A DNA stretch of 64,000 bases from the NCBI GenBank assembly GCA_963777605.1, contig CAVZRV010000013.1, positions 32,001 through 96,000 on the forward strand. Reading direction: 5' to 3'. Numbering within the stretch: position 1 is the first letter of the stretch; every line of letters starts with the position of its first letter. The stretch is from an uncultured Acidobacteriota bacterium. Its GTDB lineage: Bacteria > Acidobacteriota > UBA6911 > RPQK01 > JAPXNP01. Of the stretch, positions 29,368 to 56,078 are shown one piece after another. A program made the translations under genes and the position numbers. Under the pieces are notes generated by a model. That model was not told where the DNA came from. It made no database searches and worked only from the letters and a program-made list of their open reading frames with translations.

Positions 29368-29484
29368 AGTCAACCAAAAAACGTTAAGATGCATCCATAT
29401 AAGACGATATAGCGCTATGGAGCAACACTGGCAGCGAGAGACTCGAGGATACTGGAGCCCATATCGTTTCGAAACGAGGATTCT

Positions 29485-33987: not shown

Positions 33988-34163
33988 ACGGTCGAACGGG
34001 CCGAGCTGTTCAACTTGTCTGATCGTTCCGACCGGGTCCTTTTCGCGGGCGATCCCTTCGAATACACTAGCCTTGTGCCCGGCGTGGAGTATTGCGCCGG
34101 GCGGGTTAGCGCTGGCGCCGCCGATTGGGGTCGGCATTTCAAGAATTGGAGGGATGCCACTGC

Positions 34164-42392: not shown

Positions 42393-43610
42393 ATGGACGT
42401 GACGTTGGAGTGCGCTGATTTTCTGAGGCGCCTGATCCGGACCCCAGGCCTGCCCGGGGAAGAGGGCAATGTGGCAGAAGTGGTCGCCGGAGAGATGACG
42501 CGGCTGGGTTTTGACACCGTGGACCGGGACGGCGCGGGGAACATCATCGGGTTGGTGCGGGGAAACGGCCCGTCAGAGCCGATCATGCTCAATACCCACC
42601 TGGACCACGTTGCGGCTGGCGAGGAGAGCGAGTGGCCCTATCCCCCATTCGAGGGATCGGTGTCGGATGGCCGGATTTGGGGCCGGGGAGCTGTTGACAT
42701 CAAGGGACCACTCGCGGCGCAGGTTTACGCCGTGGGTGAACTGGCGCGGGCGGGCCGGAGGCCTCCCGGAGACGTGTGGGTCACCACGGTCGTGATGGAG
42801 GAAATTGGGGGTTTGGGTGCGCGCTACCTGGCTCGAAACCTGTTCACCAAATGTGTAATTGTCGGAGAGCCGAGCCGGAATCGGCTGATGCGAGGACACC
42901 GGGGCCGGACCGAGTTGCTTCTGACCGTCACGGGAAGGAGCGTTCACGCGAGCATTCCCGATCACGGAGTGAATCCGCTTGAAGTGACCGCGTCCTTCAT
43001 CTCGGCGATACCGGGACTCCCGCACCTGGTCGATGCCGAACTCGGACCGAGCAGTGTGGCCCCGACACTTTTCCGGACCGACCAGTCGAGCCCAAATGTC
43101 ATTCCCGGGCGAGCCTGGCTGACCTGCGACTGGCGCAATGTCCCAGGAGAGACCGGGGAGAGTATTCGCAAGTTGCTTCAGGAACTCGCCAACCGCTGTC
43201 TGATCGAGGGCGCGCGTGCCGAAGTCACCATTCCAGGCAGTGAGTTGACAACCTACACCGGATACCGGGAGTTCTCCCATTCCTACCACCCGTCATTTTG
43301 TCTCGGTCCGGAGGATCCCTCCTTGAAGGCGGCTGAAGCGGTTGTTGCTCGTGTTTTGGAAAGGCCGGCGAAAGCCGGAGTCTGGAAGTTTGCCACTGAC
43401 GGTGGCCACTTCGCGGAAGCTGGCATGAAAGTTCTGGGCCTGGGTCCGGGTGAGGAAACCCTGGCGCACACTGTGCGGGAGTCGATCGGCCTGGACGAGC
43501 TCGAAGAAGGCCGCCGATTGTACCAGGCCCTGGTCTGCGACGAGGCGTTTCGGCGCACGCAAGCCGGGGGTATCGGAACGCGGAACGGCCGAGACACGGC
43601 CGCGGGGTAA
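42393..43610 (+). CDS. M20/M25/M40 metallopeptidase/deacylase
   Basis: NTHLDHV, GRGAVDIKG, MEE, VGEPS, FATDG and LAHT motifs. Confidence 0.9.
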   Translation: MDVTLECADFLRRLIRTPGLPGEEGNVAEVVAGEMTRLGFDTVDRDGAGNIIGLVRGNGPSEPIMLNTHLDHVAAGEESEWPYPPFEGSVSDGRIWGRGAVDIKGPLAAQVYAVGELARAGRRPPGDVWVTTVVMEEIGGLGARYLARNLFTKCVIVGEPSRNRLMRGHRGRTELLLTVTGRSVHASIPDHGVNPLEVTASFISAIPGLPHLVDAELGPSSVAPTLFRTDQSSPNVIPGRAWLTCDWRNVPGETGESIRKLLQELANRCLIEGARAEVTIPGSELTTYTGYREFSHSYHPSFCLGPEDPSLKAAEAVVARVLERPAKAGVWKFATDGGHFAEAGMKVLGLGPGEETLAHTVRESIGLDELEEGRRLYQALVCDEAFRRTQAGGIGTRNGRDTAAG

Positions 43611-43766: not shown

Positions 43767-45020
43767 TCACGGCTTCCAGGGGCTGATTTGCCCGCTTTCC
43801 ATCTCCACCATGGTTACCGGGCGCGTGTTTTGACCGGTCAGGTCCCAGACGATCGGTCCGGCCGCCCCGGACCAAGAGAATTTGGCCCGCAGCGTGTCTC
43901 CAATCCGGGCCCGGTTGGCACCGGCTTCTCGCACGGCTTCTCCCAGGAGTTCGATGGCGTCGTAGGTCTGGGCGGCAGCGAAGTCCGCGGGGTGTCCGGT
44001 TTCTGACCGGAAACGCTTCGAAAACTCTTCCAGGGCTCCAAGGTCGGCCGGGAGGGGGAATATGAAGCGGTTGGACAGCCCCGCCGCCGCTTCGTGGAAG
44101 GATCGGCGGCCCATCGCCGAAGAGCCGTAAACAGGTCCGGAATAGATCGGCGCCAGGTGGCGCGCAACCTGCGCCGAAACCTGCGGATCCGCCAGGATCA
44201 CCAGGGTGGGCCGGACCGAGCCGGCGAGGAGTTGACGATTGAGGTTGGAGAGTTCGGTCTCGTCGCCTGTGGTGACGTTCAGGTGGTAGTGAAGCGCGCT
44301 CTCCCGCTTCGAGAGCGCTTCGAGGAATTCAGTCGTCACGGCGCGGGAGTCATGGTCGGTGGCGGAGATCAGGACGATGGTGTCGGTATGGCCGTTCTTC
44401 TCCAGCGTTTCGAGGAGCAACTCCATCTGGAGGTCATCGCCCGGCAGGCAGGAAAAGATCCACGGAACGTGGGCCATGTTGGCCGACCGGTCGGTCGATC
44501 CCGGGTTGAGCAGGGGCAGGCGGGCTTTGGCGACGATCTGCTCGGCCAGGTGCGCGGTAGGCCCGTCTACGCCGCCGATGATGGCCTGGATTCCGTCGTT
44601 GTAAACCATCCGCGCGATCTGCCCGACACCGCTGCCCCAGGGATTCTCCGACCACGCGGGAAGGAGTCGGAAGGGCAGCCCCCGGTAGCCGCCTCGAGCG
44701 TTGAGGTCGTCGATGGCCATTTGGGCAGCGGTCCAGGAATCACCATACAGTGGGTGATCGGGATCGGACGGCCCGAAGTAACCGATGCGGATCTCCGTAA
44801 GGCCCGGCGGGTCGATGTCATCCCGCCCGGGGCCATTGTAGTGGTGCAGGCTTGTTCGGCCGTCGAAGAACGGGCCCTCGGCCTGTCCAGCCAGAGCCGG
44901 TCGAATCAGGCAGCACAGCCCGGCCAAAACAACCAGGGCTCGGCAAATCTGGAGCCGGCTCGCCTGCCAATCGGACGGAGGGTTCGATTGGCGAACCCTC
45001 CGGCACCGGTCAGCGGTCAA
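43767..45020 (-). CDS. LivJ/ANF-receptor-type (Peripla_BP_6) substrate-binding protein
   Basis: IRIGYFGP, AIDDLNARGGYRG, AIIGGVDG, AAQTYDAI and GAAGPIVWD motifs. Confidence 0.85.
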   Translation of the reverse strand: MTADRCRRVRQSNPPSDWQASRLQICRALVVLAGLCCLIRPALAGQAEGPFFDGRTSLHHYNGPGRDDIDPPGLTEIRIGYFGPSDPDHPLYGDSWTAAQMAIDDLNARGGYRGLPFRLLPAWSENPWGSGVGQIARMVYNDGIQAIIGGVDGPTAHLAEQIVAKARLPLLNPGSTDRSANMAHVPWIFSCLPGDDLQMELLLETLEKNGHTDTIVLISATDHDSRAVTTEFLEALSKRESALHYHLNVTTGDETELSNLNRQLLAGSVRPTLVILADPQVSAQVARHLAPIYSGPVYGSSAMGRRSFHEAAAGLSNRFIFPLPADLGALEEFSKRFRSETGHPADFAAAQTYDAIELLGEAVREAGANRARIGDTLRAKFSWSGAAGPIVWDLTGQNTRPVTMVEMESGQISPWKP

Positions 45021-45032
45021 TGGCAGGCCGCT

Positions 45033-46497
45033 TCACGGCTGACCCGGTCCCGTTCCGGGACGATATCCTTGGGGGATATCGAGGTCTTCCCGCGTGTAGT
45101 AGTGCCAGGCGCCGTCCTTGAAGTGCGCCATGGCGACCGTCCCGACGTCATCCAGTGCCGCACTGAGGGCGATCTGCCCCGTCACGCCCGGCCATGGCTT
45201 GGACCTGTAGGCCAGCACGTCACGAACTTTGGCCCGATTCAATCCCGCCACCTGGACGGCCCAGATCAGCATATTCATTCCGTCGTAGGCGTGAGCCGCG
45301 TAAGTGTCCGCCTCGACACCGAAGCGTCTCCGGAAGATCTCCCGAAAAGCGGACAGCTTGGGATCTTTCCGGTCCGGGTTCCAGGGGTACATTGCCCAGA
45401 CTCCCTCGGCGTTCTGGCCGGCTATCTCGGTGAAAGTCGGGCGAGACGTGCCGGTCGGAGCCGAAGAACGGTTGCTTCATCCCCATCTTCCGCATCTGGT
45501 TGAGAATCATGGCCCCTTCCTGGGCATCTCCCCAGTGGACGATGGCGTCCGGATTGGTCGCCTTGAGGCGTTCCAGTTGAAGCGAGAAATCGGTGTCCCC
45601 GAGACGGTAGGCCATCTCCAGAACGACCGGCTTCTCCAGGCGCCGGCTGCCGTCCCGAACCTCGCGCACACCGAAGCGGCCGTACCGGTTGGAAGCCCGG
45701 ATGATCCCCACCCGTTGGTAGCCCATTTTTCGGTACAGGTAGTCCACCAAAAGGTAACCCATCTGCCGGTCGTCCCCGATACAGCGGAACACCCACGGGA
45801 TGTTCGTCTCGATAAAGGTCGGGTCGGTGTCGCCGGAGTTCATCATGGCAACCTCGGCCTTCAGAGCGACCCGGATCGCGATGTGGCTGTTGGCGCCGTC
45901 AATCGTGCCGAGAATCGCCCAAACCTTGTCGTTGTAAGCCATTTTGATGATCTCGTTGCCCGAGGCTCCCCACAGCCCGTTGTCGTTGGAGACGGCCAGT
46001 TCGAATGGAACCGACCGTTTCAGGTAGCCTCCCCGGGCATTGGCCTGTTCGATGGCCAGTCGGCTGCCCCGCATCATCTGGATTCCCAGGGGCTCTTCGT
46101 GGCTCTTGCCGCCGGTAGCGACCGAAACGGTGGACATTATGGGACCGATGAATCCGATCTTGACCGAATCGACATGCTCGGGTTCGGGGATCGCGCGCCC
46201 GGGTCCGGTGTACTCGATCTGAAGGAGGAAGTTCTCCTTGAAGGGTTTGACCCCGCTGAACGGTTCGACGTCGACGGCGGTTCCGGCGTAGTTCTCGTCC
46301 CGCTTCAGGTCAATTGGAGGAGTTTCATAGGCAGTGATGTTGTTGAGGATTTCCAGGACCTTGGCCACGGCCGGATCATCCACCGCGAAAGGAGGCAGGA
46401 GTTCATCCGGGGGCAGAATGTCCGGTCGTTTTGTCGCCTGGGCAAAGAGCCCGGACACGGTCAGGATGACGAAGAATACTCTGCAGACCAGTTTCAT
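45033..46497 (-). CDS. LivJ/ANF-receptor-type substrate-binding protein (+1 frameshift near 45434)
   Basis: Signal peptide; VKIGFIGP, AIEQANARGGY and TDFSLQL motifs. AAHAYDGMN and GVTGQI lie in the shifted frame. Confidence 0.85.
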
Positions 46498-46503
46498 GGC
46501 TAG

Positions 46504-47754
46504 TTACCTCCTCGCACTCGCCGGCCGGGCAGGAGATGTCGCTGCGGTCGGGGTCGTGGCGGCTGCGTCGGAGCCCTCCGGTTTGAGCCCGGCAAAGTAG
46601 TTCGTTCCGATCCCGTGGGCCAGGCCTTTCGACGTTCCGATCCAGACATCAGAACCGTCGAAATCTACTGCAAGCGTGTAGTTGTGGGGAATTCCGGTGG
46701 CGGTCTCAACCTCCTTCAGTACCTGTTTGTTGCGGGATACGATCGCCTTTCCCTTGTGGGTTTCCGGGTCCATCGTATAGGTGACCCACGTATCGGTATC
46801 AAAGTCGGTCACGGTCCCCACGCCCTTGTCGGTACAGAACCAGGCCTCCTGGGCGCTCCGCCCTTTGACGGCATTGATGAAGTCACTGGGAAGCCCGGTT
46901 TCCTGGTTGTAATAACCGCGCCAGTGTCGTCCGTCGTAGCGGCATCCCCCGAAGTAGGTCGAAACCCAGAGGATCTTGTCCACGTAGCTGACTCCGGTCG
47001 TGATGACGTGGACAATCCCGTCATCGCGATAGAGGTCGATCTCCATCTCACCGTCCGGGTCGAGGTAGTCTTTCCAGGTCCCGCGCGCGATGTCGTATTC
47101 GAGTACACCGCTTCCCCAGACACCGAGGTAGACAAGGCCGTCGTTGTAGGTGACACCGTAGTTCCAGATCTCCTCCATGGGCGCATTCTTCTCTGTAAAA
47201 ATGGCCCATTCGCCGGTAACGGTGTTGAATCGGCTCGCACCCGCGGTAGTCGCACACCAGACATTGTCGTGCTCGACGGCGACCCCGTAGACGACGTCGT
47301 TGACCAGTCCGCTGTTCAACTGGTGCCAGTGATCGAACCGGCCGGCGGTATAGCGCGCCAGGCCGCCGCCGAACAGGGCCAGCCAGACCTCCCCGGTCTT
47401 TGGGTTGACGGCGATCCAGGAGACCACCTTCCAGGGGAGACCATCCTCCATCGTCCAGGTCCGCTTGACCTTGCCGGCGACCTTGTCGATGAGGGCCAGG
47501 CCGTTCTCCGTGCCGACCCAAACGTCGTTGCCGTTGACGGTGACGGCGAAAATGTGGTCGTTTGGCAGCCCATCCTTGACCGTGAACTGCTGCCAGTCCC
47601 GGTAGATGTACGGCAGCGGTTCCTGCTCAGCCGCGGGCGGAACCAGCGCGGATTCAGCGAACGGCAGGGCCGGGATCGTAAACAGTATCGCCAGGACTGT
47701 CAGCAGAAAACGCGGGCATTCCTTGATGCTGACTGGGAATGATTGTCTGCTCAT
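46504..47754 (-). CDS. Secreted beta-propeller (two-component regulator propeller repeats, no kinase)
   Basis: DGLPNDHIFAV, VWVGTENGL, SGLVNDVVY, GLPSDFIN and VWIGTSKGL repeats; signal peptide. Confidence 0.85.
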   Translation of the reverse strand: MSRQSFPVSIKECPRFLLTVLAILFTIPALPFAESALVPPAAEQEPLPYIYRDWQQFTVKDGLPNDHIFAVTVNGNDVWVGTENGLALIDKVAGKVKRTWTMEDGLPWKVVSWIAVNPKTGEVWLALFGGGLARYTAGRFDHWHQLNSGLVNDVVYGVAVEHDNVWCATTAGASRFNTVTGEWAIFTEKNAPMEEIWNYGVTYNDGLVYLGVWGSGVLEYDIARGTWKDYLDPDGEMEIDLYRDDGIVHVITTGVSYVDKILWVSTYFGGCRYDGRHWRGYYNQETGLPSDFINAVKGRSAQEAWFCTDKGVGTVTDFDTDTWVTYTMDPETHKGKAIVSRNKQVLKEVETATGIPHNYTLAVDFDGSDVWIGTSKGLAHGIGTNYFAGLKPEGSDAAATTPTAATSPARPASARR

Positions 47755-47782
47755 AATTGAGTCCTCACCGATTCTTCTCGGA

Positions 47783-50635
47783 TCAGAACGTCTTGATGTA
47801 CTCAATCAGATCGTTCAGTTGATCCTTGGTCAGATCGTTCGTCACCCCATGCTTATCCTGGGGGTTGTGCACGGTCCAGATCTCCTCCAGCGTGGGTGCG
47901 ATCCCGTTGTGAAGGTAAGGCGCTGAGTCATAGATGTTGTTCAGATGGGGAACGTCAAAGAGCGCTTCCCGATCATAGGGCATCCGGGTTCCGACATCCA
48001 CCTGGGTTCGGTTCGTGTAGAGCGGAGGTGGATGACAGAAGACACACTGTCCGGTCTTGGGAATTTCCCGGCCGTCGCTGGTCATCGATCGCTCGAAGAC
48101 GGACTTGCCTCGTCGCTGGGCGGGAGTGAGTTCGGCTCCCAGAGGACGATAGCGGTTTGGTGGCCGCTGAATCATGGAAATGTAGAGATCCAATGCGGCC
48201 AGTTCGTCCGGGCTAAAAGGCTGGATTCGGGTGAAGAAGACAGCCAGGCGGGGACCGCATTGCCGCTGCAGGCTTGGGTTGGTACCTTCCCACTTGAACG
48301 GGGCGGTGTCCAGAATCCCGCGAAGCGTCCGGTTGTCCACGGGGCTCACGCCCACTCCATCCGGTTCGATGTCGTAAGTGACTCCGTCAACGTGGCCGTC
48401 CGGGTGGCAGGAGTGGCAGGAGAATTGGCGTCGGAAGGTGATTTTGGCATTGTGAAAGAGCTGTTCTCCCAAGCGTGCCTTGGTGATCTGCCTGGGTCCG
48501 CCAAGGTCCACGACTCCAGCTGGCTCGAGTCGCTTCATGTCGATAACCGTGAGGGAATCGTCCAGGCAATTGGCGACGAAAGCAGTGCTGCCGTCCGGCG
48601 TCACCCGAATTCCCCGCGGGCTCTTCCCGGTCGGGATCAGCTTCGCAATGAACTCGGTGGGCAGGCCCAGGTGATTGGGCAGAACGTTCTTGCGCTCTTC
48701 ATCGGATGCCGACTTGAGGATGCCGACCAGTTTGTTGAGATCGACCACCGCCACCCGGTCGAGGCTCGCGCTGGTCACCAGGGCATACTTTCCGTCCGGC
48801 GTGATCGTCAGGCCGGTGGGGTCGGGAAACGAGATGTCGGTCTGGTCGAGCAAGACCTGGTCCACGTGCCCGTCCTTCCAGGCGATCCCGATGCCGTTGG
48901 TGATGGTCCAGCCCTGGGTCAGCCTGGTCATGGGCACCAGGTTCTTGGTTCGGAGCATTACGAAGACGGCGTATTCCCCGCTCGGATGCCAGTCTACGCC
49001 GAGCAGGAGGTTCGTTCCCCGGGCGGTGTAGCGGTCGTCCACCTTCTCGGTCTTGGTATTGACCACGGTCAGTTCCGAGACACAGGGAGTCCGGAAGGGG
49101 ATAAACCGGGACAGGGCATTGGTCACGACGATCTGGCTGCCGTCGGGAGACAGGGACATCGCCCAGGGATACCGGCTTGCCGTCAGCCGGGACTTCTCGG
49201 TCAGTGAATCGCCATCCAGGATCGAGATGCTGTCCTCAGAGGAGTTGAGAACGTAAACGTCCCGGCCCATGCCGTCCATCTGGACGCCGTGTGGTTCGTC
49301 GCCGACGGGTACGGTGCGCAACACCTTCCGCGTCACCACATCGATCTCGCTCAAGCTGTCGTCGAGCCGGTTGGTGACGAGGACCCTCTTCCCGTCTGGG
49401 CTGAACGTCAGGTCATTGGGCTGGCCTCCGACCTGAATCTCGGCCACCTTCTGGCGCCTGGCGACATCCACAACGATGACCGAATCAGAGGTTTCGCAGG
49501 TGAGCCAGACTTCACGGCCGTTTGGAGAGACAACCAGGTTAAGAGGGTTCTTGTAGCGGATTTGCGCCACCGGTGCAGGGCGCTTTTTCGGGTGGGCGAT
49601 CGATTTCCACGCTGCTTCGTAGTCGAAGGATTTTCCGTGGGCATCGGCATGGCACTCCATGCACATGTCGCGATTGCCCAGTTTGAGGCCAGCCTCGCGG
49701 GCCGCCTCCTTGTCCAGCATGATGGCTTCGTGCTGGTAGTCGCTGCCGGGTCCATGGCACGACTCGCAGCCGACTCCCTCATCCAGGGTAAGCGACGGGA
49801 GAGCCTCGGACAGTTTTCCTCCGGTGGTGGCATGGCAGCGCAGGCACTTGGGGCTCTGTTGGGCTGGACCTTCGATCCCGGCCTGGCGAGCAATACCCTG
49901 GGCCGCCTCAGTGGCGAGGCGCCCATAGGCCTTGGCGTGCGGAGACATCTTCCAAATGCTGAATTGGTAACCCATCATGGCCGCGCGGTGGCACTGGGTG
50001 CAGGCCTGCACGCCGACGTAGTGAGGACCAGGGGTCGTTTCGTCCGCCGTCCCGGACAGGGCGGGCAGTTCCGTGAGTTCCGCCGAGTCCGGCGTCGGGT
50101 GAGCAATCCTGTTCCAGCCCTCGTCGATGTCCAGCTTGGGCAGGTTGTGGACTGCGACGTGCGATCCCTTCTCGTTGTGGCACATCTTGCAGTCGTTCTT
50201 GGTGATCTTCTTCAGCCCGGCCCGCATCGCGGCTGCGGGATCGCTCATGACCTCGGCGTCCATGTACTCGCTTCCGGGACCGTGACACTTTTCGCACTGG
50301 ACCCCGTCCTCGATGCGGAACCCGTCGTCATGTTCCCAGTCTTCGGCTTCCGCCCCGGTGGCATGGCATCCGAGACACACCGGTGACTCCTGCGGAACCT
50401 GGGGCACTCCGCTGAGGCGGGCAATTTCCAGGGCCTCCGACTTGGCCAGGACCGCGTAGGCCCGGCTGTGCTTGGTCATCAGCCACTTGCTGAACTGGTG
50501 GCCCATGGAAGGCCCGTCATGGCAGGTAGCGCAGGCCCGTGCCCCGACGTAGATGGGCTGGCGTTGCTGAGCCGCAGCGGAAACCAGAAGGCAGCTCATG
50601 CTCAGCAGGAATGGCAGCAGGGATTTGGAACGCAT
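47783..50635 (-). CDS. Decaheme protein: two c554-like tetraheme domains + YVTN/YncE beta-propeller + HzsC/CCP-like diheme domain (hydrazine synthase beta-gamma-like fusion)
   Basis: Signal peptide MRSKSLLP; 10 CxxCH motifs (CATCH, CLGCH, CEKCH, CKMCH, CTQCH, CLRCH, CESCH, CMECH, CHSCH, CVFCH); YVG..C and GVxCExCHGPGS c554 motifs; FDVPHL...APYLHNG...KHGVT..L. Confidence 0.9.
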   Translation of the reverse strand: MRSKSLLPFLLSMSCLLVSAAAQQRQPIYVGARACATCHDGPSMGHQFSKWLMTKHSRAYAVLAKSEALEIARLSGVPQVPQESPVCLGCHATGAEAEDWEHDDGFRIEDGVQCEKCHGPGSEYMDAEVMSDPAAAMRAGLKKITKNDCKMCHNEKGSHVAVHNLPKLDIDEGWNRIAHPTPDSAELTELPALSGTADETTPGPHYVGVQACTQCHRAAMMGYQFSIWKMSPHAKAYGRLATEAAQGIARQAGIEGPAQQSPKCLRCHATTGGKLSEALPSLTLDEGVGCESCHGPGSDYQHEAIMLDKEAAREAGLKLGNRDMCMECHADAHGKSFDYEAAWKSIAHPKKRPAPVAQIRYKNPLNLVVSPNGREVWLTCETSDSVIVVDVARRQKVAEIQVGGQPNDLTFSPDGKRVLVTNRLDDSLSEIDVVTRKVLRTVPVGDEPHGVQMDGMGRDVYVLNSSEDSISILDGDSLTEKSRLTASRYPWAMSLSPDGSQIVVTNALSRFIPFRTPCVSELTVVNTKTEKVDDRYTARGTNLLLGVDWHPSGEYAVFVMLRTKNLVPMTRLTQGWTITNGIGIAWKDGHVDQVLLDQTDISFPDPTGLTITPDGKYALVTSASLDRVAVVDLNKLVGILKSASDEERKNVLPNHLGLPTEFIAKLIPTGKSPRGIRVTPDGSTAFVANCLDDSLTVIDMKRLEPAGVVDLGGPRQITKARLGEQLFHNAKITFRRQFSCHSCHPDGHVDGVTYDIEPDGVGVSPVDNRTLRGILDTAPFKWEGTNPSLQRQCGPRLAVFFTRIQPFSPDELAALDLYISMIQRPPNRYRPLGAELTPAQRRGKSVFERSMTSDGREIPKTGQCVFCHPPPLYTNRTQVDVGTRMPYDREALFDVPHLNNIYDSAPYLHNGIAPTLEEIWTVHNPQDKHGVTNDLTKDQLNDLIEYIKTF

Positions 50636-50651
50636 CAAGTCTGCTCTCCCT

Positions 50652-52289
50652 TCAGTTGGCGCCTTGAATGATTTTGAGAACCTGGTTGGCCGGGACATTC
50701 TCGAGTTTCTGGGTCTCTCCTCCCGGCCATCGAATCTCAATTGAGTCCACCTTCTGCGCTTTTCCCAGTCCGAAGTGGAGCCGGGAATCGACCTCTGAGA
50801 GGTATCCCCGGACGGGTTGAACGTTTTCGATTTGTCGCAGCGAATCAACCTGGACGGTGACCCGCGCGCCCAGAGCATCCCGCTCGGGGCCGGGGAGCTT
50901 CGGGACGACCTTAATCCAGTTGTTCTCGTTGCCACCGTCGTTGCGCAGCAACTTGGCGCGATCGTTCAGGTTGACGATCACCAAGTCGAGATCCCCGTCG
51001 TTGTCAAAATCGCCGAAGGTGGATCCCCGTCCAACCATTTTTACCCTGAAATAGTCTCCGGAGCGGTCGGAAACATCGTTGAAAACACCGGTGCCGTCGT
51101 TGTGAAGCAGCACATCCTCCTCGGTGTACTCGTGGTGAGCGTTGCCGTTGGAGACAAAGAGGTCGAGGTAGCCGTCATTGTCGTAGTCCACCAGGAGACC
51201 GCCCCAGCCGGTGTACTGACCGCAGGTGATGGCGACCTTGGAGCGGGTGGTCTGGTCTTCGAAGAACTCTCCCTGGTTCATTAGGAGACTGCTGTAGCCC
51301 ATGTCGGGGACGTAGATGTCCAGCAGTTGATTGCGGTCGATATCGCCCGGAAAGGGGCCCATCGAGGAAACGCCCTGTCCATGTTCGCCGAACGCCAAAC
51401 CCAGGAAGAGTCCCTTTTCGACGAAGGTCCCCTTTCCGGTGTTCTCGAAGTAGTAGTTTTCGGTGGCATCGTTGGCGACGTAGATGTCCATGTAGCCATC
51501 GCCGTTGAGATCGGCGGCGGTGGCACTCATGGCACGCCCGTTGTCCTTGAATACGCCTGCCTCACGGGCGACGTTAGTGAACGTGCCGTCGCCGTTGTTC
51601 CGATAGAGCGCATCGCTCTCGGCGCTGTAGCTCAGGGGGCCAGGGTAGCCGGCCGCGGCGTAGTAGGCCCGGAACTTTCCGTCATCGTAACGCAGGTAGT
51701 TGGCCACGTAGACGTCGAGGTCACCGTCATTGTCGTAATCGAGCCAGGGAGCGGAAAGGCTCCAGTTGGGGTCGGCCAGGCCCGCCTCTTTCGCAACGTC
51801 GGTAAACGTGCCGTCGCCGTTGTTCCGGTAGAGGACGTTCGAGCCGTAGTTCAAAACGTAGATGTCCACGTCCCCGTCGGCGTCGAAATCGACGGCGGAG
51901 CAGCCGAAGCTGGGACTTGGATCGCCAACCCCTGCCGAGTCGGTGACATCGGTGAAGGTGCCGTCCCCGTTGTTTCGGTAGAGATGGTTGAAGAGCTTTC
52001 CGCGCAGCTTCCGGCCACGGTTGTCGCTGATGGATTTGTCCCAGGAACCGTTCGGGAAGTAGAGGTCGAACCAGCCGTCGTTGTTGTAGTCGAGGAAGCA
52101 TGCCCCGGCACCGGTCCCCTCAACGATGTTGGTCAGGTCGAAATCGCCGAAGCTGTGTTTGAAGTCAATTCCCGCAGAGTCGGTGACGTCCACAAAAACC
52201 GGCAGGTTCGCCGGGTTCTGGGCCTGTCCCAGCGATCCGGCAATCGCCAGCGCGAACAAGAATAGGCATGGTCGGCGAAAGCACCTCAT
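50652..52289 (-). CDS. CRTAC1-family protein (FG-GAP/VCBS repeats + ASPIC/UnbV)
   Basis: FVDVTDSAGI, DYNNDGWFDLY, LYRNNGDGTFTDV repeats and GYLS..DSRLHFGLG...IRWPGG. Confidence 0.92.
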   Translation of the reverse strand: MRCFRRPCLFLFALAIAGSLGQAQNPANLPVFVDVTDSAGIDFKHSFGDFDLTNIVEGTGAGACFLDYNNDGWFDLYFPNGSWDKSISDNRGRKLRGKLFNHLYRNNGDGTFTDVTDSAGVGDPSPSFGCSAVDFDADGDVDIYVLNYGSNVLYRNNGDGTFTDVAKEAGLADPNWSLSAPWLDYDNDGDLDVYVANYLRYDDGKFRAYYAAAGYPGPLSYSAESDALYRNNGDGTFTNVAREAGVFKDNGRAMSATAADLNGDGYMDIYVANDATENYYFENTGKGTFVEKGLFLGLAFGEHGQGVSSMGPFPGDIDRNQLLDIYVPDMGYSSLLMNQGEFFEDQTTRSKVAITCGQYTGWGGLLVDYDNDGYLDLFVSNGNAHHEYTEEDVLLHNDGTGVFNDVSDRSGDYFRVKMVGRGSTFGDFDNDGDLDLVIVNLNDRAKLLRNDGGNENNWIKVVPKLPGPERDALGARVTVQVDSLRQIENVQPVRGYLSEVDSRLHFGLGKAQKVDSIEIRWPGGETQKLENVPANQVLKIIQGAN

Positions 52290-54205
52290 TCATCCCCTCC
52301 TGAAAGTCTCTTCTGCTCCATCTCAACTGCGTTCTGCACCCGGGATCCGCCATGAGCACCCAGATCGATCCACTCAATCATCACCTGGGCGTGTGCCGGT
52401 TGCACCAGCGGTTTCCCCATATTGGGCGGGCCCTCGTTCTGATTCGGCACTGTCCCGTCCCAGGGAAGAGTAGTGATTTTGCCCAGGATGTGCCAGACCA
52501 GGGGACTGGTTCGGGCCCGGCCCGGGTCGATCCAGCGTTTTTCCCCGCCTTCCGAACCCGGGTTTCCGCCATTCAATCGCGCGTAAATTCTTGCGACATA
52601 CCCACTGGAATCCGTCCGGCCGTCGGGAGGACGGAAGTCCGCCCCCGAAGTTCCCCCGGAATGGCATGACTCGGTCGTGCATCCCTTCTGGATAACCGGA
52701 AGGACATCCCGCTGGAAATCGACATAGCGGCGCAGGTGGGCGGGCGCGGTCAGCCGGACGGGAGGCTTCTTCACCGCATCGACAAACCGGTTGTCCGGGA
52801 CCAGTTCTCCGTCTTCGTGGCAGCCGATGCATCCACGAGGTTCCTTGTTCCTGGCCCAGATCCAGCCGCAACTCTTGAGGGACATCCCCTTGTCGTCAAT
52901 GAGTTGCAGCTGGACCGGCGTGTTGGCCGGCACCTCGAAGAAGACGGAGCCGTCGGCTTCCAGGGGAACCTCACCGAGGATACGTTTGGGAATCATCGAA
53001 TCCCTGGATTCGGAATGAGCCGGCAGGCCCTCGAGGACGCGCACGCGCCTGGCGAGGGACTGCAGTTGTGTCCCATTCTTCAGATCGTTGATGCCGACGT
53101 TGAGGCAGTAGAACTGCCCGAAGGGATGGTTCTCGTTGACCACGCTGGAGCGGCCGTCGGGTTGGGGGCGAGCTTTGACTAGGCGCCCGTAAAGCAGGTT
53201 GCTGGATGAACTGGACAGCCAGGGCGTGAAGGTCCCGCTTTCCGGGTCCAGTTTCACGACTTCGAAACGTGAAGAGCCGGCCGAGGCTTTCCGGGAAACC
53301 AGGATCGAACCGTCCGGAAGCGGGGCGGGGGAGTAGAAAATCCCCTCTGCCGGCCCGGTGAGTCTTCGATAGGTGTGCATCGGGCGCCGAAGCGAGACCG
53401 AGCCCAGGGTTCCCCCGATGGCCCCCGCGTCGAGAGCCGATTCGACGAACACGGCCAGGTCATGGGTCGTCACCGTGGGCATTTGCTGGACCGGCGATCC
53501 CTGCAAGCCGGAAAAGGCGACCAGGTCGGTGCCGTCAACGTTCATGTTGAAGATCCGGGTCTGGCCGGCATCGCTTGCAGCAGTCCCGGCCCGCCGGCTC
53601 GAGAAGAGGATGCGACCGTCCCAACAAAGGAAGGGATCTTCGTCGGAGGACGGGTTATAGGTGATCCGCTTGATCTCGCTCCCGTCGAGTTGGCAGGAAT
53701 AAAGGTTGAGGGCTTTGCCGGTGCCCCGCTCGTTGTACTCACCTGCCGCGTCACTGACAAAGAGGATCTGAAGCCACGGCTCGTTCGCCGTGATGATGTA
53801 GTAGGCTGACAGGTAGATCGGAGAGCGACAGTTTCCGGAGTCGCGGGTGACCTGCCGGGTCTTTCCCGAATCAATCTCGTACTCGAAAATGTTCCAGGGT
53901 TCGCCGGCTGAGGGCCTTCCGGAAAAAAGGATCCGCTTCCCGTCGTAGGAGACGTCAGGTTCGCAGGCGCTCTCGAAACCCTTGCTGACGGCAACCGTTC
54001 GGCCGTCCGGATAGCGCAGTACTAAGCGGGCCCCGTCACAGACCTCGGAACGCTGAACTTTTGCCGGGGAGACGGAAGGCGGAAGCGCTCGTGCTTCCAC
54101 CAGGACGGTTGGTTCGGGGGGGGCGGGGGATTGCGCCCAGACCAACCCCGACACTCCGAAAACGATGAGAGAGAAAGAGAGGAGACCTCGCATTTCACGA
54201 GTCAT
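52286..54205 (-). CDS. Hydrazine synthase alpha subunit-like protein (TolB-like propeller + HZS_alpha middle domain + heme c)
   Basis: EPDVSYDGKRILFS propeller; ILGEVPLEADGSVFFEVPANTPVQLQLIDDKGMS...WIWARNKEPRGCIGCHE; second motif CTTESCH; EWIDLGA end. Confidence 0.85.
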   Translation of the reverse strand: MTREMRGLLSFSLIVFGVSGLVWAQSPAPPEPTVLVEARALPPSVSPAKVQRSEVCDGARLVLRYPDGRTVAVSKGFESACEPDVSYDGKRILFSGRPSAGEPWNIFEYEIDSGKTRQVTRDSGNCRSPIYLSAYYIITANEPWLQILFVSDAAGEYNERGTGKALNLYSCQLDGSEIKRITYNPSSDEDPFLCWDGRILFSSRRAGTAASDAGQTRIFNMNVDGTDLVAFSGLQGSPVQQMPTVTTHDLAVFVESALDAGAIGGTLGSVSLRRPMHTYRRLTGPAEGIFYSPAPLPDGSILVSRKASAGSSRFEVVKLDPESGTFTPWLSSSSSNLLYGRLVKARPQPDGRSSVVNENHPFGQFYCLNVGINDLKNGTQLQSLARRVRVLEGLPAHSESRDSMIPKRILGEVPLEADGSVFFEVPANTPVQLQLIDDKGMSLKSCGWIWARNKEPRGCIGCHEDGELVPDNRFVDAVKKPPVRLTAPAHLRRYVDFQRDVLPVIQKGCTTESCHSGGTSGADFRPPDGRTDSSGYVARIYARLNGGNPGSEGGEKRWIDPGRARTSPLVWHILGKITTLPWDGTVPNQNEGPPNMGKPLVQPAHAQVMIEWIDLGAHGGSRVQNAVEMEQKRLSGGDE

Positions 54206-54311
54206 ACAACAAATCCTGAATAGACTCGACCCGCCGCGTGCTCGTTGGCCATGAGAGTGAGGCACTCGGGCCGAATGACAGTGTCTCGGTCTCGGAATCG
54301 CAGAAGACGAA

Positions 54312-54899
54312 CTACTCTTCCCGCTTCAGCATCGCAATGGCCTCGATCTCGACAAGCAGATCCTCACGGCAAAGCCTGGCCTGGATTCCGACACTCGCCG
54401 GCAGAGGGCTCAGTTCGAGGTAATTGAAGAAGGCGTTTCGGACCCGGTTGAATTCTTCGTAATCGCGCTCGATATCACGCAGATAGCAGGTGCATTTCAC
54501 GATATCGCGCCAGGTTGCCCCCTGGGCGGTGAGCAGTTCGGTGATATTCCGGTAGGTACGCCAGCACTGGGCGCGAAAATTGCCTTTGTGGACCGTGTCT
54601 CCTTTTTCGTCGACACTGGCGGTTCCCGAAATGAAAATCAGGTCGTGGTTGCCCATCTCGATGCGAAGGCCGCGCGAGAAGGCCGAACCGTAGTCATACG
54701 CTTCGTTCAGGACGGTGGAGGCGGAGACCGCCTGCCGTGTGACGGACGTGAACCCCGGTTGGTGTGCGACCTCGAGCAACGGTCGAACTGAGCCAGAAGA
54801 AGAGAGCAGGCCGAGAGCGACCAATTCCTGTCTTTCACCTTTAGTCAGGTTGCCAAATCCCGCCAGAATGTCGTCGCGCACGCTCACCAATGTGCTCAT
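54312..54899 (-). CDS. Rid/YjgF-family protein (Rid7/FkbO-Hyg5-like single domain)
   Basis: SAFSRG, IFISGTASVD, YLRD, FNRVR and IQARLCREDLLVEIEAIA motifs. Confidence 0.85.
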   Translation of the reverse strand: MSTLVSVRDDILAGFGNLTKGERQELVALGLLSSSGSVRPLLEVAHQPGFTSVTRQAVSASTVLNEAYDYGSAFSRGLRIEMGNHDLIFISGTASVDEKGDTVHKGNFRAQCWRTYRNITELLTAQGATWRDIVKCTCYLRDIERDYEEFNRVRNAFFNYLELSPLPASVGIQARLCREDLLVEIEAIAMLKREE

Positions 54900-54960
54900 T
54901 TACCGGTCCCTCCCAATCAGCATGTTTAAGAAGTACAGAATTCACCCACGGCTTCAGAAC

Positions 54961-54976
54961 AGCAAGATCAGTGCCA
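54961..54976 (-). promoter_or_regulatory. Sigma54 (-24/-12) promoter
   Basis: The minus strand reads TGGCAC-TGATC-TTGCT with exact consensus spacing, ~60 bp upstream of the Rid start codon. An AT-rich tract lies just upstream at ~55013-55040. Confidence 0.8.
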
Positions 54977-55448: not shown

Positions 55449-56078
55449 ATGCCCAAAGAGAAGAAGCCTGAGATGAGCAGCTCCGGCCTGTCCCGAAGAG
55501 ACTTCTTCAGAAGCGGCACCGTGGCCGGCATGTCGGCGGCACTGGTTTCGCAGAAGTCAGGGCTGGCCAAGAGTGAGGCGGGAACCCAGATTCTGGGCCC
55601 GGACCCGGTGCCAATCAGACTGATCGTCAATGGAAAGCAGCTCAATCTCAAGGTCGAGCCGCGGGTCACCCTGCTGGACGCATTGCGCAACGACCTGGGA
55701 ATAACCGGTGCAAAGAAGGTTTGTGACCGTGGAACGTGTGGTGCGTGCACGGTACTTCTTGACGGAAAGCCGGTTTACTCCTGCTCGGTGTTCGCGATCG
55801 AAGCGCAGGGAAAAGACATCGTCACCGTTGAGGGCCTCGGCACTCCCGACAAGATGCACCCGATACAGGAGGCGTTCGTGGATCACGACGCCCAGCAGTG
55901 CGGGTTCTGTACTTCGGGATTCGTGGTTGCCAGCAAGGCATTTCTGGACAAGAACCCGAATCCGAGCCTGGAGGATATCAACAAGGGTTTGGGCGGTAAC
56001 CTGTGCCGTTGCGGAACCTACGCCGGAATCCGCGGTGCAATCCTGCAGGCGGCTGGGAAAGGAGGAGACAATGCCTGA
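55449..56078 (+). CDS. Molybdenum hydroxylase (2Fe-2S) subunit with Tat signal (PaoA/YagT-like)
   Basis: SRRDFFR; GAKKVCDRGTCGACTV; QCGFCTSG; GNLCRCGTY. Confidence 0.93.
   Translation: MPKEKKPEMSSSGLSRRDFFRSGTVAGMSAALVSQKSGLAKSEAGTQILGPDPVPIRLIVNGKQLNLKVEPRVTLLDALRNDLGITGAKKVCDRGTCGACTVLLDGKPVYSCSVFAIEAQGKDIVTVEGLGTPDKMHPIQEAFVDHDAQQCGFCTSGFVVASKAFLDKNPNPSLEDINKGLGGNLCRCGTYAGIRGAILQAAGKGGDNA

What the first reader, a model, noticed from the sequence alone, without database searches (positions are those of the whole stretch)
43767..54976. Sigma54-driven hydrazine-synthase-like operon in an apparently non-anammox bacterium
Seen in sequence: seven co-oriented genes, most separated by only -4 to ~30 bp (107 bp after Rid): Rid protein, HzsA-like, CRTAC1, decaheme propeller-diheme fusion, secreted propeller and two substrate-binding proteins. 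A consensus sigma54 promoter heads the operon. Established: anammox hydrazine synthase consists of alpha (propeller + middle domain + hemes), beta (7-bladed propeller) and gamma (CCP/MauG-like diheme), and beta-gamma are fused in Scalindua. All three architectures are present here. Inference: a periplasmic multi-heme complex doing N-O, N-N or other heme chemistry on an unknown small molecule, with its own electron wire and accessory binding proteins. I know of no characterised system with this composition.
Basis: partly seen in the sequence, partly recalled or inferred. Interest (0 to 1): 0.92.

Follow-up and report, generated by a model that had tools for sequence, protein, structure and literature searches.

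The report
Hydrazine-synthase-like multihaem operon, already described
This is a real, tightly packed operon in a soil acidobacterium that encodes distant relatives of all three subunits of the anammox enzyme hydrazine synthase plus four helper proteins, but the same gene set was described in a 2025 paper, it lacks the residues needed to make hydrazine, and its chemistry is still unknown.

Summary
Seven co-oriented minus-strand genes (43767-54899) sit behind an exact sigma54 motif: Rid, an HzsA-like dihaem protein, CRTAC1, a decahaem protein (two c554 modules, a propeller, a CCP-like dihaem domain), a Reg_prop propeller and two LIV-type binding proteins. One binding-protein gene is frameshifted.

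Homology to Kuenenia HZS alpha, beta and gamma is significant (E 1.5e-34, 3e-37, 8e-19). A modelled alpha/beta-gamma interface scores 0.65 against 0.03 for controls. The genome is acidobacterial and shows no HAO/HDH-type cytochrome.

The novelty claim does not hold. Hagglund et al. 2025 (PMC12758564) describe this arrangement as their "clade I" HZS homologues.

HZS-specific catalytic residues are missing here:
- no Tyr after the alpha-I haem motif, and no Cys303 insertion
- gamma His144 is Trp
- gamma Asp168 is Arg

NCBIfam scores reach only 13-28% of the HZS cut-offs.

New here:
- The six-gene order is kept in 47 of 50 related loci.
- The same genome holds a second, shorter paralogous cassette with the same protein families.
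- Sigma54 and Rid are mainly an acidobacterial add-on.

The function is uncharacterised. My best guess is a periplasmic two-site haem enzyme for a small nitrogen compound.

The parts
54962..54976 (-). sigma54-type -24/-12 promoter motif TGGCAC-N5-TTGC
   Evidence: It is the only exact match in the window. Its 3' end is 62 nt upstream of the Rid ATG. The motif is aligned and kept in L007, L008, L009 and L021. rpoN is present in the genome, with about 30 full-length activator genes, none of them in the window.
54312..54899 (-). Rid/YjgF-family protein, 195 aa, no signal peptide, with an ~80-aa N-terminal extension
   Evidence: PF01042 at 6.4e-21. TIGR00004 scores 61.9 bits, below its cut-off of 106. 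It is present co-oriented upstream in 20 of 59 related loci with room.
52286..54205 (-). HzsA-like dihaem protein, 639 aa: signal peptide, TolB-like propeller, HZS_alpha middle domain with haem alpha-I (CIGCH), C-terminal cytochrome domain with CX4CH
   Evidence: PF18582 at 5.1e-21. NF052339 scores 149 bits against a cut-off of 800. 5c2v_A matches at 1.5e-34 in four segments. The model has pLDDT 75.8, and its top Foldseek hit is 5c2v_A at E 8.4e-33, TM 0.67; the next hit is TolB at 9e-12.
50652..52289 (-). CRTAC1-family secreted FG-GAP propeller with UnbV/ASPIC domain, 545 aa
   Evidence: FG-GAP_3 at 2.5e-51 and UnbV_ASPIC at 2.3e-25. It is present between the alpha-like and beta-gamma-like genes in 70 of 70 loci with room.
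47783..50635 (-). Decahaem HzsBC-like fusion, 950 aa: signal peptide, two tetrahaem c554 modules, 7-bladed YVTN/YncE propeller, CCP/MauG-like dihaem domain
   Evidence: Ten CXXCH motifs, all invariant in 81 of 81 homologues. Cytochrome_C554 at 6.9e-31, YNCE at 1.6e-22, CCP_MauG at 25.6 bits, exactly its cut-off. NF052342 scores 201.6 bits against a cut-off of 1250. 5c2v_B at 3e-37 and 5c2v_C at 8e-19.
46504..47754 (-). Secreted Reg_prop beta-propeller, 416 aa
   Evidence: PF07494 at 1.8e-6. The model has pLDDT 86.2. Its top fold matches are the periplasmic sensor propellers of Bacteroides hybrid two-component systems, TM 0.59. It is present in 70 of 71 loci with room.
45033..46497 (-). Peripla_BP_6 (Leu/Ile/Val-binding-protein type) substrate-binding protein with an ~130-aa N-terminal extension; reading frame broken near 45430-45440
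   Evidence: PF13458 at 8.3e-23. The frameshift is seen in the three-frame translation. LivK/LivJ-type PDB relatives. It is present in 67 of 68 loci and is the best-conserved accessory protein, at 63-85% identity.
43767..45020 (-). Second Peripla_BP_6 substrate-binding protein (start TTG 45020 or 44927)
   Evidence: PF13458 at 3.3e-26. LIV-type PDB relatives. It is present in 51 of 55 loci with room.

Best explanation
The locus is an acidobacterial copy of the published but uncharacterised 'clade I' family of hydrazine-synthase homologues. It encodes a periplasmic haem enzyme with 12 haem-binding motifs.

Proposed complex. An alpha-like subunit carries a His-ligated catalytic-type haem and a second cytochrome haem. 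It docks onto a beta-gamma fusion protein. The contact is between the segment around the alpha-I haem motif and an almost invariant loop in blade 6 of the beta propeller, the region that sits in the substrate tunnel in HZS.

Proposed electron path. Electrons pass through eight fused c554-type haems to a probably bis-His haem (gamma-II). From there they reach a gamma-I haem that keeps the HZS-type third cysteine. That site otherwise has peroxidase/MauG-type pocket residues (Trp and Gln), and an Arg where HZS has Asp168.

Accessory proteins. Four secreted proteins (CRTAC1, a Reg_prop propeller and two LIV-type binding proteins) belong to the same module. They probably capture or deliver the substrate, or scaffold the complex.

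Regulation. In this lineage the module is transcribed with a Rid-family gene from a sigma54 promoter.

Chemistry. It is not a hydrazine synthase. My committed guess is a channelled, multi-electron conversion of a small nitrogen compound (NO, hydroxylamine, nitrite or an amine), most likely reductive. I give that about 0.35.

Shown here: gene content, homology, conservation, the residue pattern and a predicted interface. Inferred: periplasmic location, direction of electron flow, the tunnel, the substrate, and any physical role of the accessory proteins.
For: Homology to all three HZS subunits:
- NCBIfam matches at 1.1e-43 (alpha), 5.5e-46 (beta), 1.8e-22 (gamma) and 1.8e-59 (beta-gamma fusion).
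- PDB 5C2V chains A, B and C at 1.5e-34, 3e-37 and 8e-19. The beta match covers residues 14-347 of 352.
- Foldseek of the alpha-like model hits 5c2v_A at E 8.4e-33, TM 0.67. The next hit is 21 orders of magnitude weaker.

Match to the published clade I description (PMC12758564, sections 7 and 8):
- alpha upstream, CRTAC1 in between
- eight extra c554 haems
- the alpha-II site present
- gamma Cys165 kept, and Trp in place of gamma His144
- two binding-protein genes downstream
Each point was checked.

Module conservation in related loci with room:
- alpha-like 63 of 63
- CRTAC1 70 of 70
- propeller 70 of 71
- SBP1 67 of 68
- SBP2 51 of 55
- full six-gene order 47 of 50
The 80 loci are 30 Acidobacteriota, 47 Planctomycetota and 3 others.

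A second, diverged cassette with the same families lies on contig C30 of the same genome. Its order is kept in 8 of 9 loci fetched from other genomes of the phylum.

No ABC permease or ATPase family was found among the conserved flanking families that were checked.

Invariant features in 81 of 81 beta-gamma homologues: all ten haem motifs, Trp782, Cys793 and Arg796. The blade-6 loop is nearly invariant.

Predicted alpha/beta-gamma interface:
- Score 0.65 (runs 0.68, 0.65, 0.58) against a best control of 0.03.
- That mark was reached by 58 of 80 solved complexes and 2 of 110 mismatched pairs.
- Contacts agree in at least 71%; partner pLDDT is at least 74.
- The contacts are beta-gamma 562-579 and 650-657 with alpha 464-474.

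Weak hints towards nitrogen:
- the sigma54 motif and Rid
- LIV-type binding proteins, with weak urea-ABC model hits for SBP1
- C-N hydrolase or M20 amidohydrolase genes next to some cassettes
Against: - No experiment exists for any member of this family, and no substrate is indicated by any tool result.
- The interface pass may come from the model's memory of the solved HZS complex 5C2V. It shows likeness, not binding.
- The pocket residues Trp782 and Gln792 resemble peroxidases and MauG rather than HZS. That fits oxidant chemistry as well as N-oxide reduction.
- Sigma54 and Rid are not general. Rid occurs in 20 of 59 loci. A sigma54-like motif with at most one mismatch occurs upstream of the first gene in 9 of 60 loci. 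So the nitrogen-regulation hint covers only part of the family.
- Physical association of CRTAC1, the propeller and the binding proteins with the haem proteins was not tested.
- SBP1 is frameshifted in this assembly. This copy could therefore be defective, although other genes in the window are also split, which points to assembly indels.
Confidence: 0.7

Rival explanations
1. It is a peroxide- or oxygen-activating CCP/MauG-type enzyme. The gamma-like dihaem site makes a high-valent oxidant. That oxidant either detoxifies peroxide or oxidatively modifies a partner, which could be a small molecule or one of the co-encoded secreted proteins. The octahaem module supplies or removes electrons.
For: - The CCP/MauG Trp is invariant in 81 of 81 homologues, where HZS has His144.
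- A Gln aligns with the Gln of the 'Q-A-x-x-P' stretch of the Nitrosomonas dihaem peroxidase 1iqc. That this Gln lines the peroxidatic pocket is recalled, not tested.
- CCP_MauG and RoxA-like Pfam matches.
- MauG-like and MbnH-like NCBIfam matches.
Against: - A peroxidase or maturase would not obviously need a conserved second haem subunit docked through the HZS-type tunnel loop. Nor would it need eight extra haems or two binding proteins.
- The Met ligand position of the Nitrosomonas peroxidase is not kept. An invariant His lies three residues on, as in HZS gamma.
- The CCP_MauG Pfam score sits exactly at its cut-off, 25.6 bits.
Confidence: 0.2
2. It is mainly an electron-transfer conduit for respiration on an external or periplasmic acceptor such as metals or humic substances. 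The propellers and binding proteins act as scaffold, and there is no channelled small-molecule catalysis.
For: - There are 12 haem motifs. The N-terminal module also matches MtrC/MtrF-like and decahaem families.
- Carriers include anaerobic sediment lineages such as Sedimentisphaerales.
Against: - The most conserved part is the gamma-like catalytic-type domain (75% mean identity), not the haem wire (49-63%).
- No outer-membrane porin or quinol dehydrogenase family was seen among the conserved neighbours that were checked.
- The homology is to an enzyme, not a conduit.
Confidence: 0.1
3. It is a genuine hydrazine synthase or another enzyme that forms N-N bonds, so this acidobacterium carries out cryptic anammox-like chemistry.
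For: Homologues of all three subunits are present and the interface is predicted. Gamma Cys165 is kept.
Against: - Scores reach only 13-28% of the NCBIfam equivalog cut-offs.
- There is no Tyr after the alpha-I CXXCH.
- The short insertion that carries alpha Cys303 is absent.
- Gamma His144 is Trp and gamma Asp168 is Arg.
- No HAO/HDH-type octahaem cytochrome was found in a genome that is 96.7% complete.
- PMC12758564 reaches the same conclusion for clade I.
Confidence: 0.04
4. The gene row is a chance neighbourhood. The binding proteins, the propeller and CRTAC1 have nothing to do with the haem proteins.
For: There is no direct evidence of physical association. Peripla_BP_6 proteins normally serve ABC importers.
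Against: - The six-gene order is kept in 47 of 50 loci across mainly two phyla.
- It recurs in a diverged paralogous cassette.
- Gaps run from -4 to 28 nt.
- No transporter genes are conserved nearby.
Confidence: 0.03

Closest known systems
'Clade I' hydrazine-synthase homologues of Hagglund et al. 2025 (Genome Biol Evol, PMC12758564). Named carriers: Syntrophobacter fumaroxidans, Paludibaculum fermentans, Aquisphaera giovannonii, Thermogutta terrifontis, Novipirellula artificiosorum, Opitutus terrae
   Same: - Gene order: alpha-like, CRTAC1, beta-gamma fusion.
- Eight extra N-terminal haems in two c554 domains.
- The alpha-II haem site is present.
- Gamma Cys165 is kept and Trp replaces gamma His144.
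- Two binding-protein genes lie downstream.
- My alpha-like model matches 5c2v_A at TM 0.67. The paper reports 0.66-0.67 for S. fumaroxidans and O. terrae.
   Different: Nothing essential differs; this is a further member. Points I did not find in the parts of the paper I read (abstract, sections 7, 8, 12 part 1, and passages):
- the Reg_prop propeller gene
- the Rid gene and the sigma54 motif
- the Arg at the gamma Asp168 position
- the CX4CH variant of the alpha-II motif
The paper's figures and supplements were not seen.
Anammox hydrazine synthase (Kuenenia stuttgartiensis HZS, PDB 5C2V)
   Same: - Homologous alpha subunit (propeller, middle domain with haem, cytochrome domain), beta subunit (7-bladed propeller with a blade-6 insertion) and gamma subunit (dihaem, CCP-like).
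- The third cysteine at haem gamma-I.
- A probable bis-His gamma-II haem.
- A predicted alpha/beta-gamma contact through the blade-6 loop.
   Different: - The alpha-I haem lacks the Tyr591 ligand and the Cys303 insertion of the zinc site.
- Gamma His144 is Trp and gamma Asp168 is Arg.
- Beta and gamma are fused, with an octahaem c554 module added.
- The gene order is reversed, with alpha first.
- Four secreted accessory proteins are present.
- The host has no HAO/HDH-type cytochrome.
hzsA-like plus fused hzsBC-like genes in Phycisphaerae UBA1845 genomes (Suarez et al. 2023, PMC10732223; passages read)
   Same: Non-anammox carriers. hzsA-like lies immediately upstream of a fused hzsBC-like gene. 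Blastp scores to Kuenenia subunits fall in the same range (89-163 bits there).
   Different: That paper considered these organisms possible novel anammox bacteria. I could not tell from the passages whether their clusters carry the CRTAC1, propeller and binding-protein genes.
Bacterial dihaem cytochrome c peroxidases and MauG/MbnH
   Same: Two CXXCH haems in a CCP fold, the inter-haem Trp, and a Gln aligned to the peroxidase stretch.
   Different: - Fused to a propeller and eight further haems.
- An extra Cys next to the Gln.
- The Met ligand position of the Nitrosomonas enzyme is not kept.
- Only a borderline Pfam score.
Cytochrome c554 of Nitrosomonas europaea
   Same: Two tetrahaem modules match the c554 family (PF13435 at 107.5 bits, 1bvb at 1e-8).
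   Different: Here the modules are fused in tandem to an enzyme-like protein, rather than acting as a free carrier for hydroxylamine oxidoreductase.

Membership tests
Hydrazine synthase proper (anammox HZS) | Scores above the NCBIfam equivalog cut-offs for alpha, beta, gamma or the beta-gamma fusion | tested here: not met
   149.3 against 800, 157.3 against 560, 79.8 against 625, and 201.6 against 1250 bits. No match in the whole genome exceeds the alpha cut-off.
Hydrazine synthase proper (anammox HZS) | Haem alpha-I with a Tyr591 proximal ligand four residues after the CXXCH His, and a zinc site with Cys303 (numbering from PMC12758564 and PMC12607021) | tested here: not met
   The motif is followed by HEDGELVPDN, which has no Tyr. 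H-E-D is invariant in 63 of 63 homologues. Cys303 lies in a 5-residue insertion of 5c2v_A that this protein lacks.
Hydrazine synthase proper (anammox HZS) | Gamma-subunit pocket residues His144 and Asp168 | tested here: not met
   They align to Trp782 and Arg796, each invariant in 81 of 81 homologues. The numbering offset was derived from gamma His106 being chain position 67.
Hydrazine synthase proper (anammox HZS) | A third covalent bond to haem gamma-I through Cys165 | tested here: met
   Cys793 aligns to chain position 126 of 5c2v_C and is invariant in 81 of 81 homologues. The bond itself cannot be tested here.
Hydrazine synthase proper (anammox HZS) | A companion hydrazine dehydrogenase or HAO-family octahaem enzymes in the genome | tested here: not met
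   PF13447 hits only the beta-gamma-like protein itself, in a genome that is 96.7% complete. This was a single-family search, so absence is not proven.
Hydrazine synthase proper (anammox HZS) | Alpha binds beta-gamma | tested here: met
   Score 0.65 against a best control of 0.03. The mark was reached by 58 of 80 solved complexes and 2 of 110 mismatched pairs. Contacts agree in at least 71% and partner pLDDT is at least 74. A like complex is solved, so this shows likeness, not binding.
Clade I HZS homologues (PMC12758564) | The alpha-like gene upstream of the fused beta-gamma gene, with a CRTAC1/FG-GAP gene between them | tested here: met
   The same order holds in 63 of 63 and 70 of 70 related loci.
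Clade I HZS homologues (PMC12758564) | Eight additional N-terminal haem motifs in two c554 domains, plus two C-terminal motifs | tested here: met
   Ten CXXCH motifs. PF13435 matches in two stretches.
Clade I HZS homologues (PMC12758564) | The alpha-II haem site is present, but alpha His772 is absent | tested here: met
   A CX4CH motif lies at 509-515 of the 639-aa protein. The position aligned to His772 is Met596. That stretch aligns weakly.
Clade I HZS homologues (PMC12758564) | Two substrate-binding-protein genes downstream | tested here: met
   Two Peripla_BP_6 genes. The first is frameshifted in this assembly.
Bacterial dihaem cytochrome c peroxidase / MauG | Pfam CCP_MauG above its gathering score, two haems and the inter-haem Trp | tested here: inconclusive
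   The score is 25.6 bits, exactly the cut-off. The Trp is present. The position of the Nitrosomonas Met258 ligand holds Gln, with an invariant His three residues on. That Met258 is the ligand is recalled.
Sigma54-dependent operon | GG/GC elements at -24/-12 with the right spacing, rpoN in the genome, and a cognate activator | tested here: inconclusive
   The motif is exact and conserved. rpoN scores 431.9 bits. About 30 full-length activator genes exist but none lies in the window. No transcript data: no RNA run was listed.

The most novel reading that the evidence does not exclude
The conserved module has five protein families: the alpha-like haem protein, the beta-gamma-like haem protein, CRTAC1, the Reg_prop propeller and the LIV-type binding proteins. 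It exists in two anciently diverged versions in one genome. It could be a new kind of periplasmic nitrogen enzyme. In that reading the binding proteins hand an amine or amino-acid-like substrate to an HZS-like two-site haem machine. The product would be a new N-N or N-O bond, or ammonium released by a haem-based route unlike any known amine dehydrogenase. That would mark the pre-anammox chemistry from which hydrazine synthase evolved.
Probability: 0.1. Interest if true: 0.85.

Novelty: new member of a known kind. Interest (0 to 1): 0.42.

Why it matters
These are the closest known relatives of hydrazine synthase, the enzyme behind a large share of global nitrogen loss, and nobody knows what they do. 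They are not rare. 254 stretches in one-genome-per-species collections encode a relative of the decahaem protein at tblastn E <= 1e-3, and the best 80 are full-length at 57-73% identity. About 1 in 20 sampled genomes of this phylum carry the alpha-like gene (14 of 301). Working out their chemistry would show which activity hydrazine synthesis evolved from. It could also reveal an unrecognised periplasmic redox reaction in soil and sediment bacteria. This particular window adds little beyond one more example. The useful additions are the fixed set of accessory proteins, the second cassette in the same genome, and the residue pattern of the gamma-like site.

Tried and rejected
- Expression data. 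The look-up of sequencing runs listed no RNA holder. The only holder was a DNA soil-metagenome run with a 0.11 share of words. Read laying was therefore not used. This says nothing about expression.
- Rfam. No match in the operon region or in the conserved leader of the relatives.
- Terminator and sigma70 scans. Nothing above chance.
- Ligand of the binding proteins. PDB sequence matches only place them in the Leu/Ile/Val-binding family. I did not attempt a residue-level ligand call.
- Fold of the Reg_prop protein. It is a confident propeller, but the matches are generic and give no functional clue.
- Literature on bacterial CRTAC1/UnbV/ASPIC together with multihaem proteins. The search returned only PMC12758564 as relevant. 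Searches for 'hydrazine synthase-like', 'hzs-like', 'HZS_alpha' and hydrazine synthase with Acidobacteria, Syntrophobacter or Paludibaculum found no functional study of this family.
- Horizontal transfer. A FastTree of 81 beta-gamma proteins groups mostly by phylum, with 5 label changes by parsimony on a midpoint-rooted tree. I make no claim about donors.
- A linked sigma54 activator. None lies in the window.
- Rid as chorismatase. The 368-384-aa Pirellulales form matches TIGR04444 at only 46-53 bits against a cut-off of 325. I rejected this as a name and kept it as a lead.
- Not used: the search for homologous proteins, the search of protein representatives, the listing of cluster members, the protein-atlas search, search_dna_similar, the metagenome scan.
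- The physical association of CRTAC1, the propeller and the binding proteins was not modelled. The single complex job went to the alpha/beta-gamma pair.

Full report
**What is in the sequence.**
Between 43767 and 54976 the minus strand carries seven ORFs in a row. With the most plausible starts they are:
- Rid: 54899-54312
- an HzsA-like protein: 54205-52286
- a CRTAC1-family protein: 52289-50652
- a 950-aa decahaem protein: 50635-47783
- a Reg_prop propeller: 47754-46504
- two Peripla_BP_6 binding proteins: 46497-45033 and 45020-43767

The spacings are 106, -4, 16, 28, 6 and 12 nt. Pfam confirms each assignment. The decahaem protein has ten CXXCH motifs. The HzsA-like protein has one CXXCH and one CX4CH.

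The exact motif TGGCACTGATCTTGC lies at 54962-54976 on the minus strand. Its 3' end is 62 nt upstream of the Rid start. By count alone such motifs are not enriched in the window: 7 with at most one mismatch against 3.6 expected. But this is the only exact match. It also aligns with a kept TGGCA-N6-TC-N-TGC core in the otherwise divergent upstream regions of four related loci. The genome has rpoN and about 30 full-length sigma54 activator genes, none of them in the window.

The first binding-protein gene changes frame near 45430-45440. Its homologues elsewhere are intact. Other genes in the window are also split, such as glycogen phosphorylase at 34125-36654. An assembly indel is therefore the likelier cause.

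**The host.**
The window is part of a 6.73-Mb, 53-contig genome estimated 96.7% complete with 5.7% contamination. The best relatives of the decahaem protein are Acidobacteriota MAGs at 72-73% identity, with syntenic flanks. The HAO/HDH Pfam family PF13447 matches nothing in the genome except the decahaem protein itself. No HZS model is matched above its cut-off. 'Non-anammox' is therefore supported.

**Homology to hydrazine synthase is real.**
- NCBIfam places the proteins nearest the HZS alpha, beta, gamma and beta-gamma-fusion models, at 1.1e-43, 5.5e-46, 1.8e-22 and 1.8e-59. These are only 13-28% of the curated cut-offs.
- Against solved structures, the alpha-like protein matches only 5c2v_A (1.5e-34, four segments spanning all three domains).
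- The propeller matches 5c2v_B over residues 14-347 of 352 (3e-37). The C-terminal domain matches 5c2v_C (8e-19).
- A generic YVTN surface-layer propeller (1l0q) scores higher overall, through repeated blade matches.
- An AlphaFold model of the alpha-like protein (pLDDT 75.8) finds 5c2v_A at E 8.4e-33 and TM 0.67. TolB follows at 9e-12.

**It is not new.**
Hagglund et al. 2025 (PMC12758564) searched for HZS homologues and sorted the co-localised alpha and beta-gamma pairs into four clades. I read the abstract, sections 7 and 8, section 12 part 1, and passages. Their clade I has:
- the alpha gene upstream
- a CRTAC1/FG-GAP gene between alpha and beta-gamma
- eight extra N-terminal haem motifs in two c554 domains
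- the alpha-II haem site
- a Cys at gamma 165
- Trp in place of gamma His144
- two binding-protein genes downstream

Clade I includes the acidobacterium Paludibaculum fermentans. Every one of these points holds here. They conclude that the residues needed for hydrazine synthesis are not conserved, and they propose no function. An earlier paper reported hzsA-like plus fused hzsBC-like genes in non-anammox Phycisphaerae (PMC10732223, passages read). My literature searches found no functional study.

**Residue checks done here.**
I took numbering from the papers and offsets from the printed alignments.
- Alpha Cys303 sits in a five-residue insertion of Kuenenia alpha that this protein lacks.
- The alpha-I motif is followed by HEDGELVPDN, with no Tyr. 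R-G-C-[IV]-G-C-H-E-D is invariant in 63 of 63 homologues.
- Alpha His772 aligns, weakly, to a Met. Many homologues have an M-P-P motif nearby (36 of 63).
- The alpha-II motif is CX4CH here and in 19 further sequences. It is CX2CH in 43 of 63.
- In the gamma-like domain, His144 is Trp782 and Cys165 is Cys793.
- Asp168 is Arg796. Asp168 is proposed as a proton donor in PMC12607021 (passages read).
- These three residues are invariant in 81 of 81 homologues.
- An invariant His929 lies where HZS gamma has its 'MHG' His, three residues after the position of the Nitrosomonas peroxidase Met258. This suggests a bis-His gamma-II haem as in HZS. The ligand roles are recalled from the literature, not tested.
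- The blade-6 loop (residues 564-581) is almost invariant.

**Predicted interface.**
The beta-gamma core (356-950) was folded with the middle and C-terminal domains of the alpha-like protein (380-639), each with a 23-row alignment.
- Score 0.65 (runs 0.68, 0.65, 0.58) against a best control of 0.03.
- That mark was reached by 58 of 80 solved complexes and 2 of 110 mismatched pairs.
- Contacts agree in at least 71%, and partner pLDDT is at least 74.
- The confident contacts join the blade-6 loop and residues 650-657 to alpha residues 464-474, directly after the alpha-I haem motif.

The HZS complex is solved, so this pass shows likeness and may come from memory. It does not show that this copy binds.

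**What I can add: a fixed module.**
A scan of one genome per species found 254 stretches encoding a relative of the decahaem protein at tblastn E <= 1e-3. The best 80 loci were kept. They are full-length at 57-73% identity: 30 Acidobacteriota, 47 Planctomycetota, and one each of Verrucomicrobia, Anaerolineales and unclassified.

Presence among loci with enough flank:

| Gene | Loci |
|---|---|
| alpha-like | 63 of 63 |
| CRTAC1 | 70 of 70 |
| Reg_prop propeller | 70 of 71 |
| first binding protein | 67 of 68 |
| second binding protein | 51 of 55 |
| full six-gene order | 47 of 50 |
| Rid, co-oriented upstream | 20 of 59 |

The one locus without the downstream genes is L035.

A sigma54-like motif with at most one mismatch lies within 400 nt upstream of the first gene in 9 of 60 loci, against about 0.5 expected. 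Five of those nine are among the 11 acidobacterial loci with Rid. Sigma54 and Rid are thus a lineage feature, not part of the core.

No ABC permease or ATPase family appears among the conserved flanking families I checked. In Planctomycetota the recurrent neighbours are further CRTAC1 and TPR genes.

The same genome carries a second, diverged cassette on contig C30. Its order is:
- CRTAC1
- a short one-haem HZS_alpha protein
- a beta-gamma-like protein with one extra N-terminal haem motif
- a Reg_prop propeller
- Peripla_BP_6

This matches the paper's description of clade III. The order is kept in 8 of 9 loci fetched from other genomes of the phylum. Two old paralogous versions with the same five families argue strongly that the accessory proteins work with the haem proteins.

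Prevalence in a sample of the phylum: the alpha-like protein occurs in 14 of 301 genomes and the short beta-gamma form in 18 of 301, both counts including this genome. A FastTree of the beta-gamma proteins groups mostly by phylum. So about 60% identity across phyla reflects strong constraint, strongest in the gamma-like domain (75% mean identity).

**Mechanism.**
Shown: the parts, their homology, their conservation, and a predicted HZS-like contact.

Inferred: export to the periplasm (signal peptides, c-type haems); electron flow through the eight c554-type haems to gamma-II and gamma-I; and a channel past the blade-6 loop to alpha-I.

The gamma-like site is a hybrid. It keeps the HZS third cysteine and the probable bis-His gamma-II haem, but it has the peroxidase/MauG Trp and Gln, plus an invariant Arg.

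I commit to a channelled multi-electron conversion of a small nitrogen compound as the most likely chemistry, at about 0.35. The grounds are the only characterised relative, the multi-electron wire, the LIV-type binding proteins (SBP1 also gives weak urea-ABC model hits) and the nitrogen-flavoured neighbours in some lineages. A peroxide or oxidant-activating CCP/MauG-like role is the main rival, at about 0.2. True hydrazine synthesis is unlikely, at about 0.04.

**Verdict.**
The novelty is that of a further member of a published but uncharacterised family.

Supplements and figures of the key paper could not be seen and may already contain some of the additions listed here.

Noticed in passing
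window 45430-45440 (also 34125-36654 and 4280-5185): The first binding-protein gene is frameshifted. Glycogen phosphorylase is split into two overlapping ORFs, and an aconitase ORF covers only the first half of its family model. Together these suggest assembly indels rather than true pseudogenes.
   Followed up: partly
L087 4222-12356 (G000 contig C30, about 28.2-36.4 kb): A second, diverged HZS-like cassette lies in the same genome. Its order is CRTAC1, a short one-haem HZS_alpha protein, a beta-gamma-like protein with one extra haem motif, a Reg_prop propeller, Peripla_BP_6 and a 215-aa ORF. The beta-gamma gene seems to change frame near its 3' end.
   Followed up: partly
L087 1663-4097: Directly upstream of the second cassette is a HAMP/HisKA_3 sensor kinase whose N-terminal part carries two CXXCH motifs. 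It could be a c-type-haem sensor. A LuxR-type response regulator follows it. The pair was not found in the flanks of the 9 related loci.
   Followed up: partly
L007 5430-5632, L008 and L009 equivalents: The three closest relatives have a conserved leader of about 140 nt between the sigma54 motif and the Rid start. The window lacks it. There is no Rfam match.
   Followed up: partly
window 55449-59177 (+): Genes of a xanthine-dehydrogenase/CO-dehydrogenase-family molybdenum hydroxylase (large subunit and FAD subunit; the 2Fe-2S subunit is seen in L008) are transcribed divergently from the operon. They are syntenic only in the closest acidobacterial relatives.
   Followed up: partly
L018 4321-5451, L027 4945-6066; L060 5057-5950: In Pirellulales the gene in the Rid position encodes a 368-384-aa two-domain protein. 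It weakly resembles FkbO/Hyg5 chorismatases (46-53 bits against a cut-off of 325). In 6 acidobacterial loci a DAHP synthase gene lies near the upstream (Rid) end of the cassette. This hints at a chorismate-derived small molecule in some lineages.
   Followed up: partly
L019 16836-22811, L065 17134-20838 and similar: In many Planctomycetota loci the cassette is followed, convergently, by arrays of further CRTAC1-type genes and TPR genes, some of them fused. The family was seen in 31 loci.
   Followed up: partly
window 42393-43610 (+); L023 11744-12766: An M20-family amidohydrolase/peptidase gene converges on the end of the operon in the window. A carbon-nitrogen hydrolase gene holds the same place in 4 Pirellulales loci.
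   Followed up: no
window 23157-33285: A block of large genes lies about 10 kb from the operon: an 855-aa protein with no family match, a fused GT2/GT4 glycosyltransferase, a methyltransferase-domain protein, and a 1062-aa protein with only a weak DUF5719 match.
   Followed up: no
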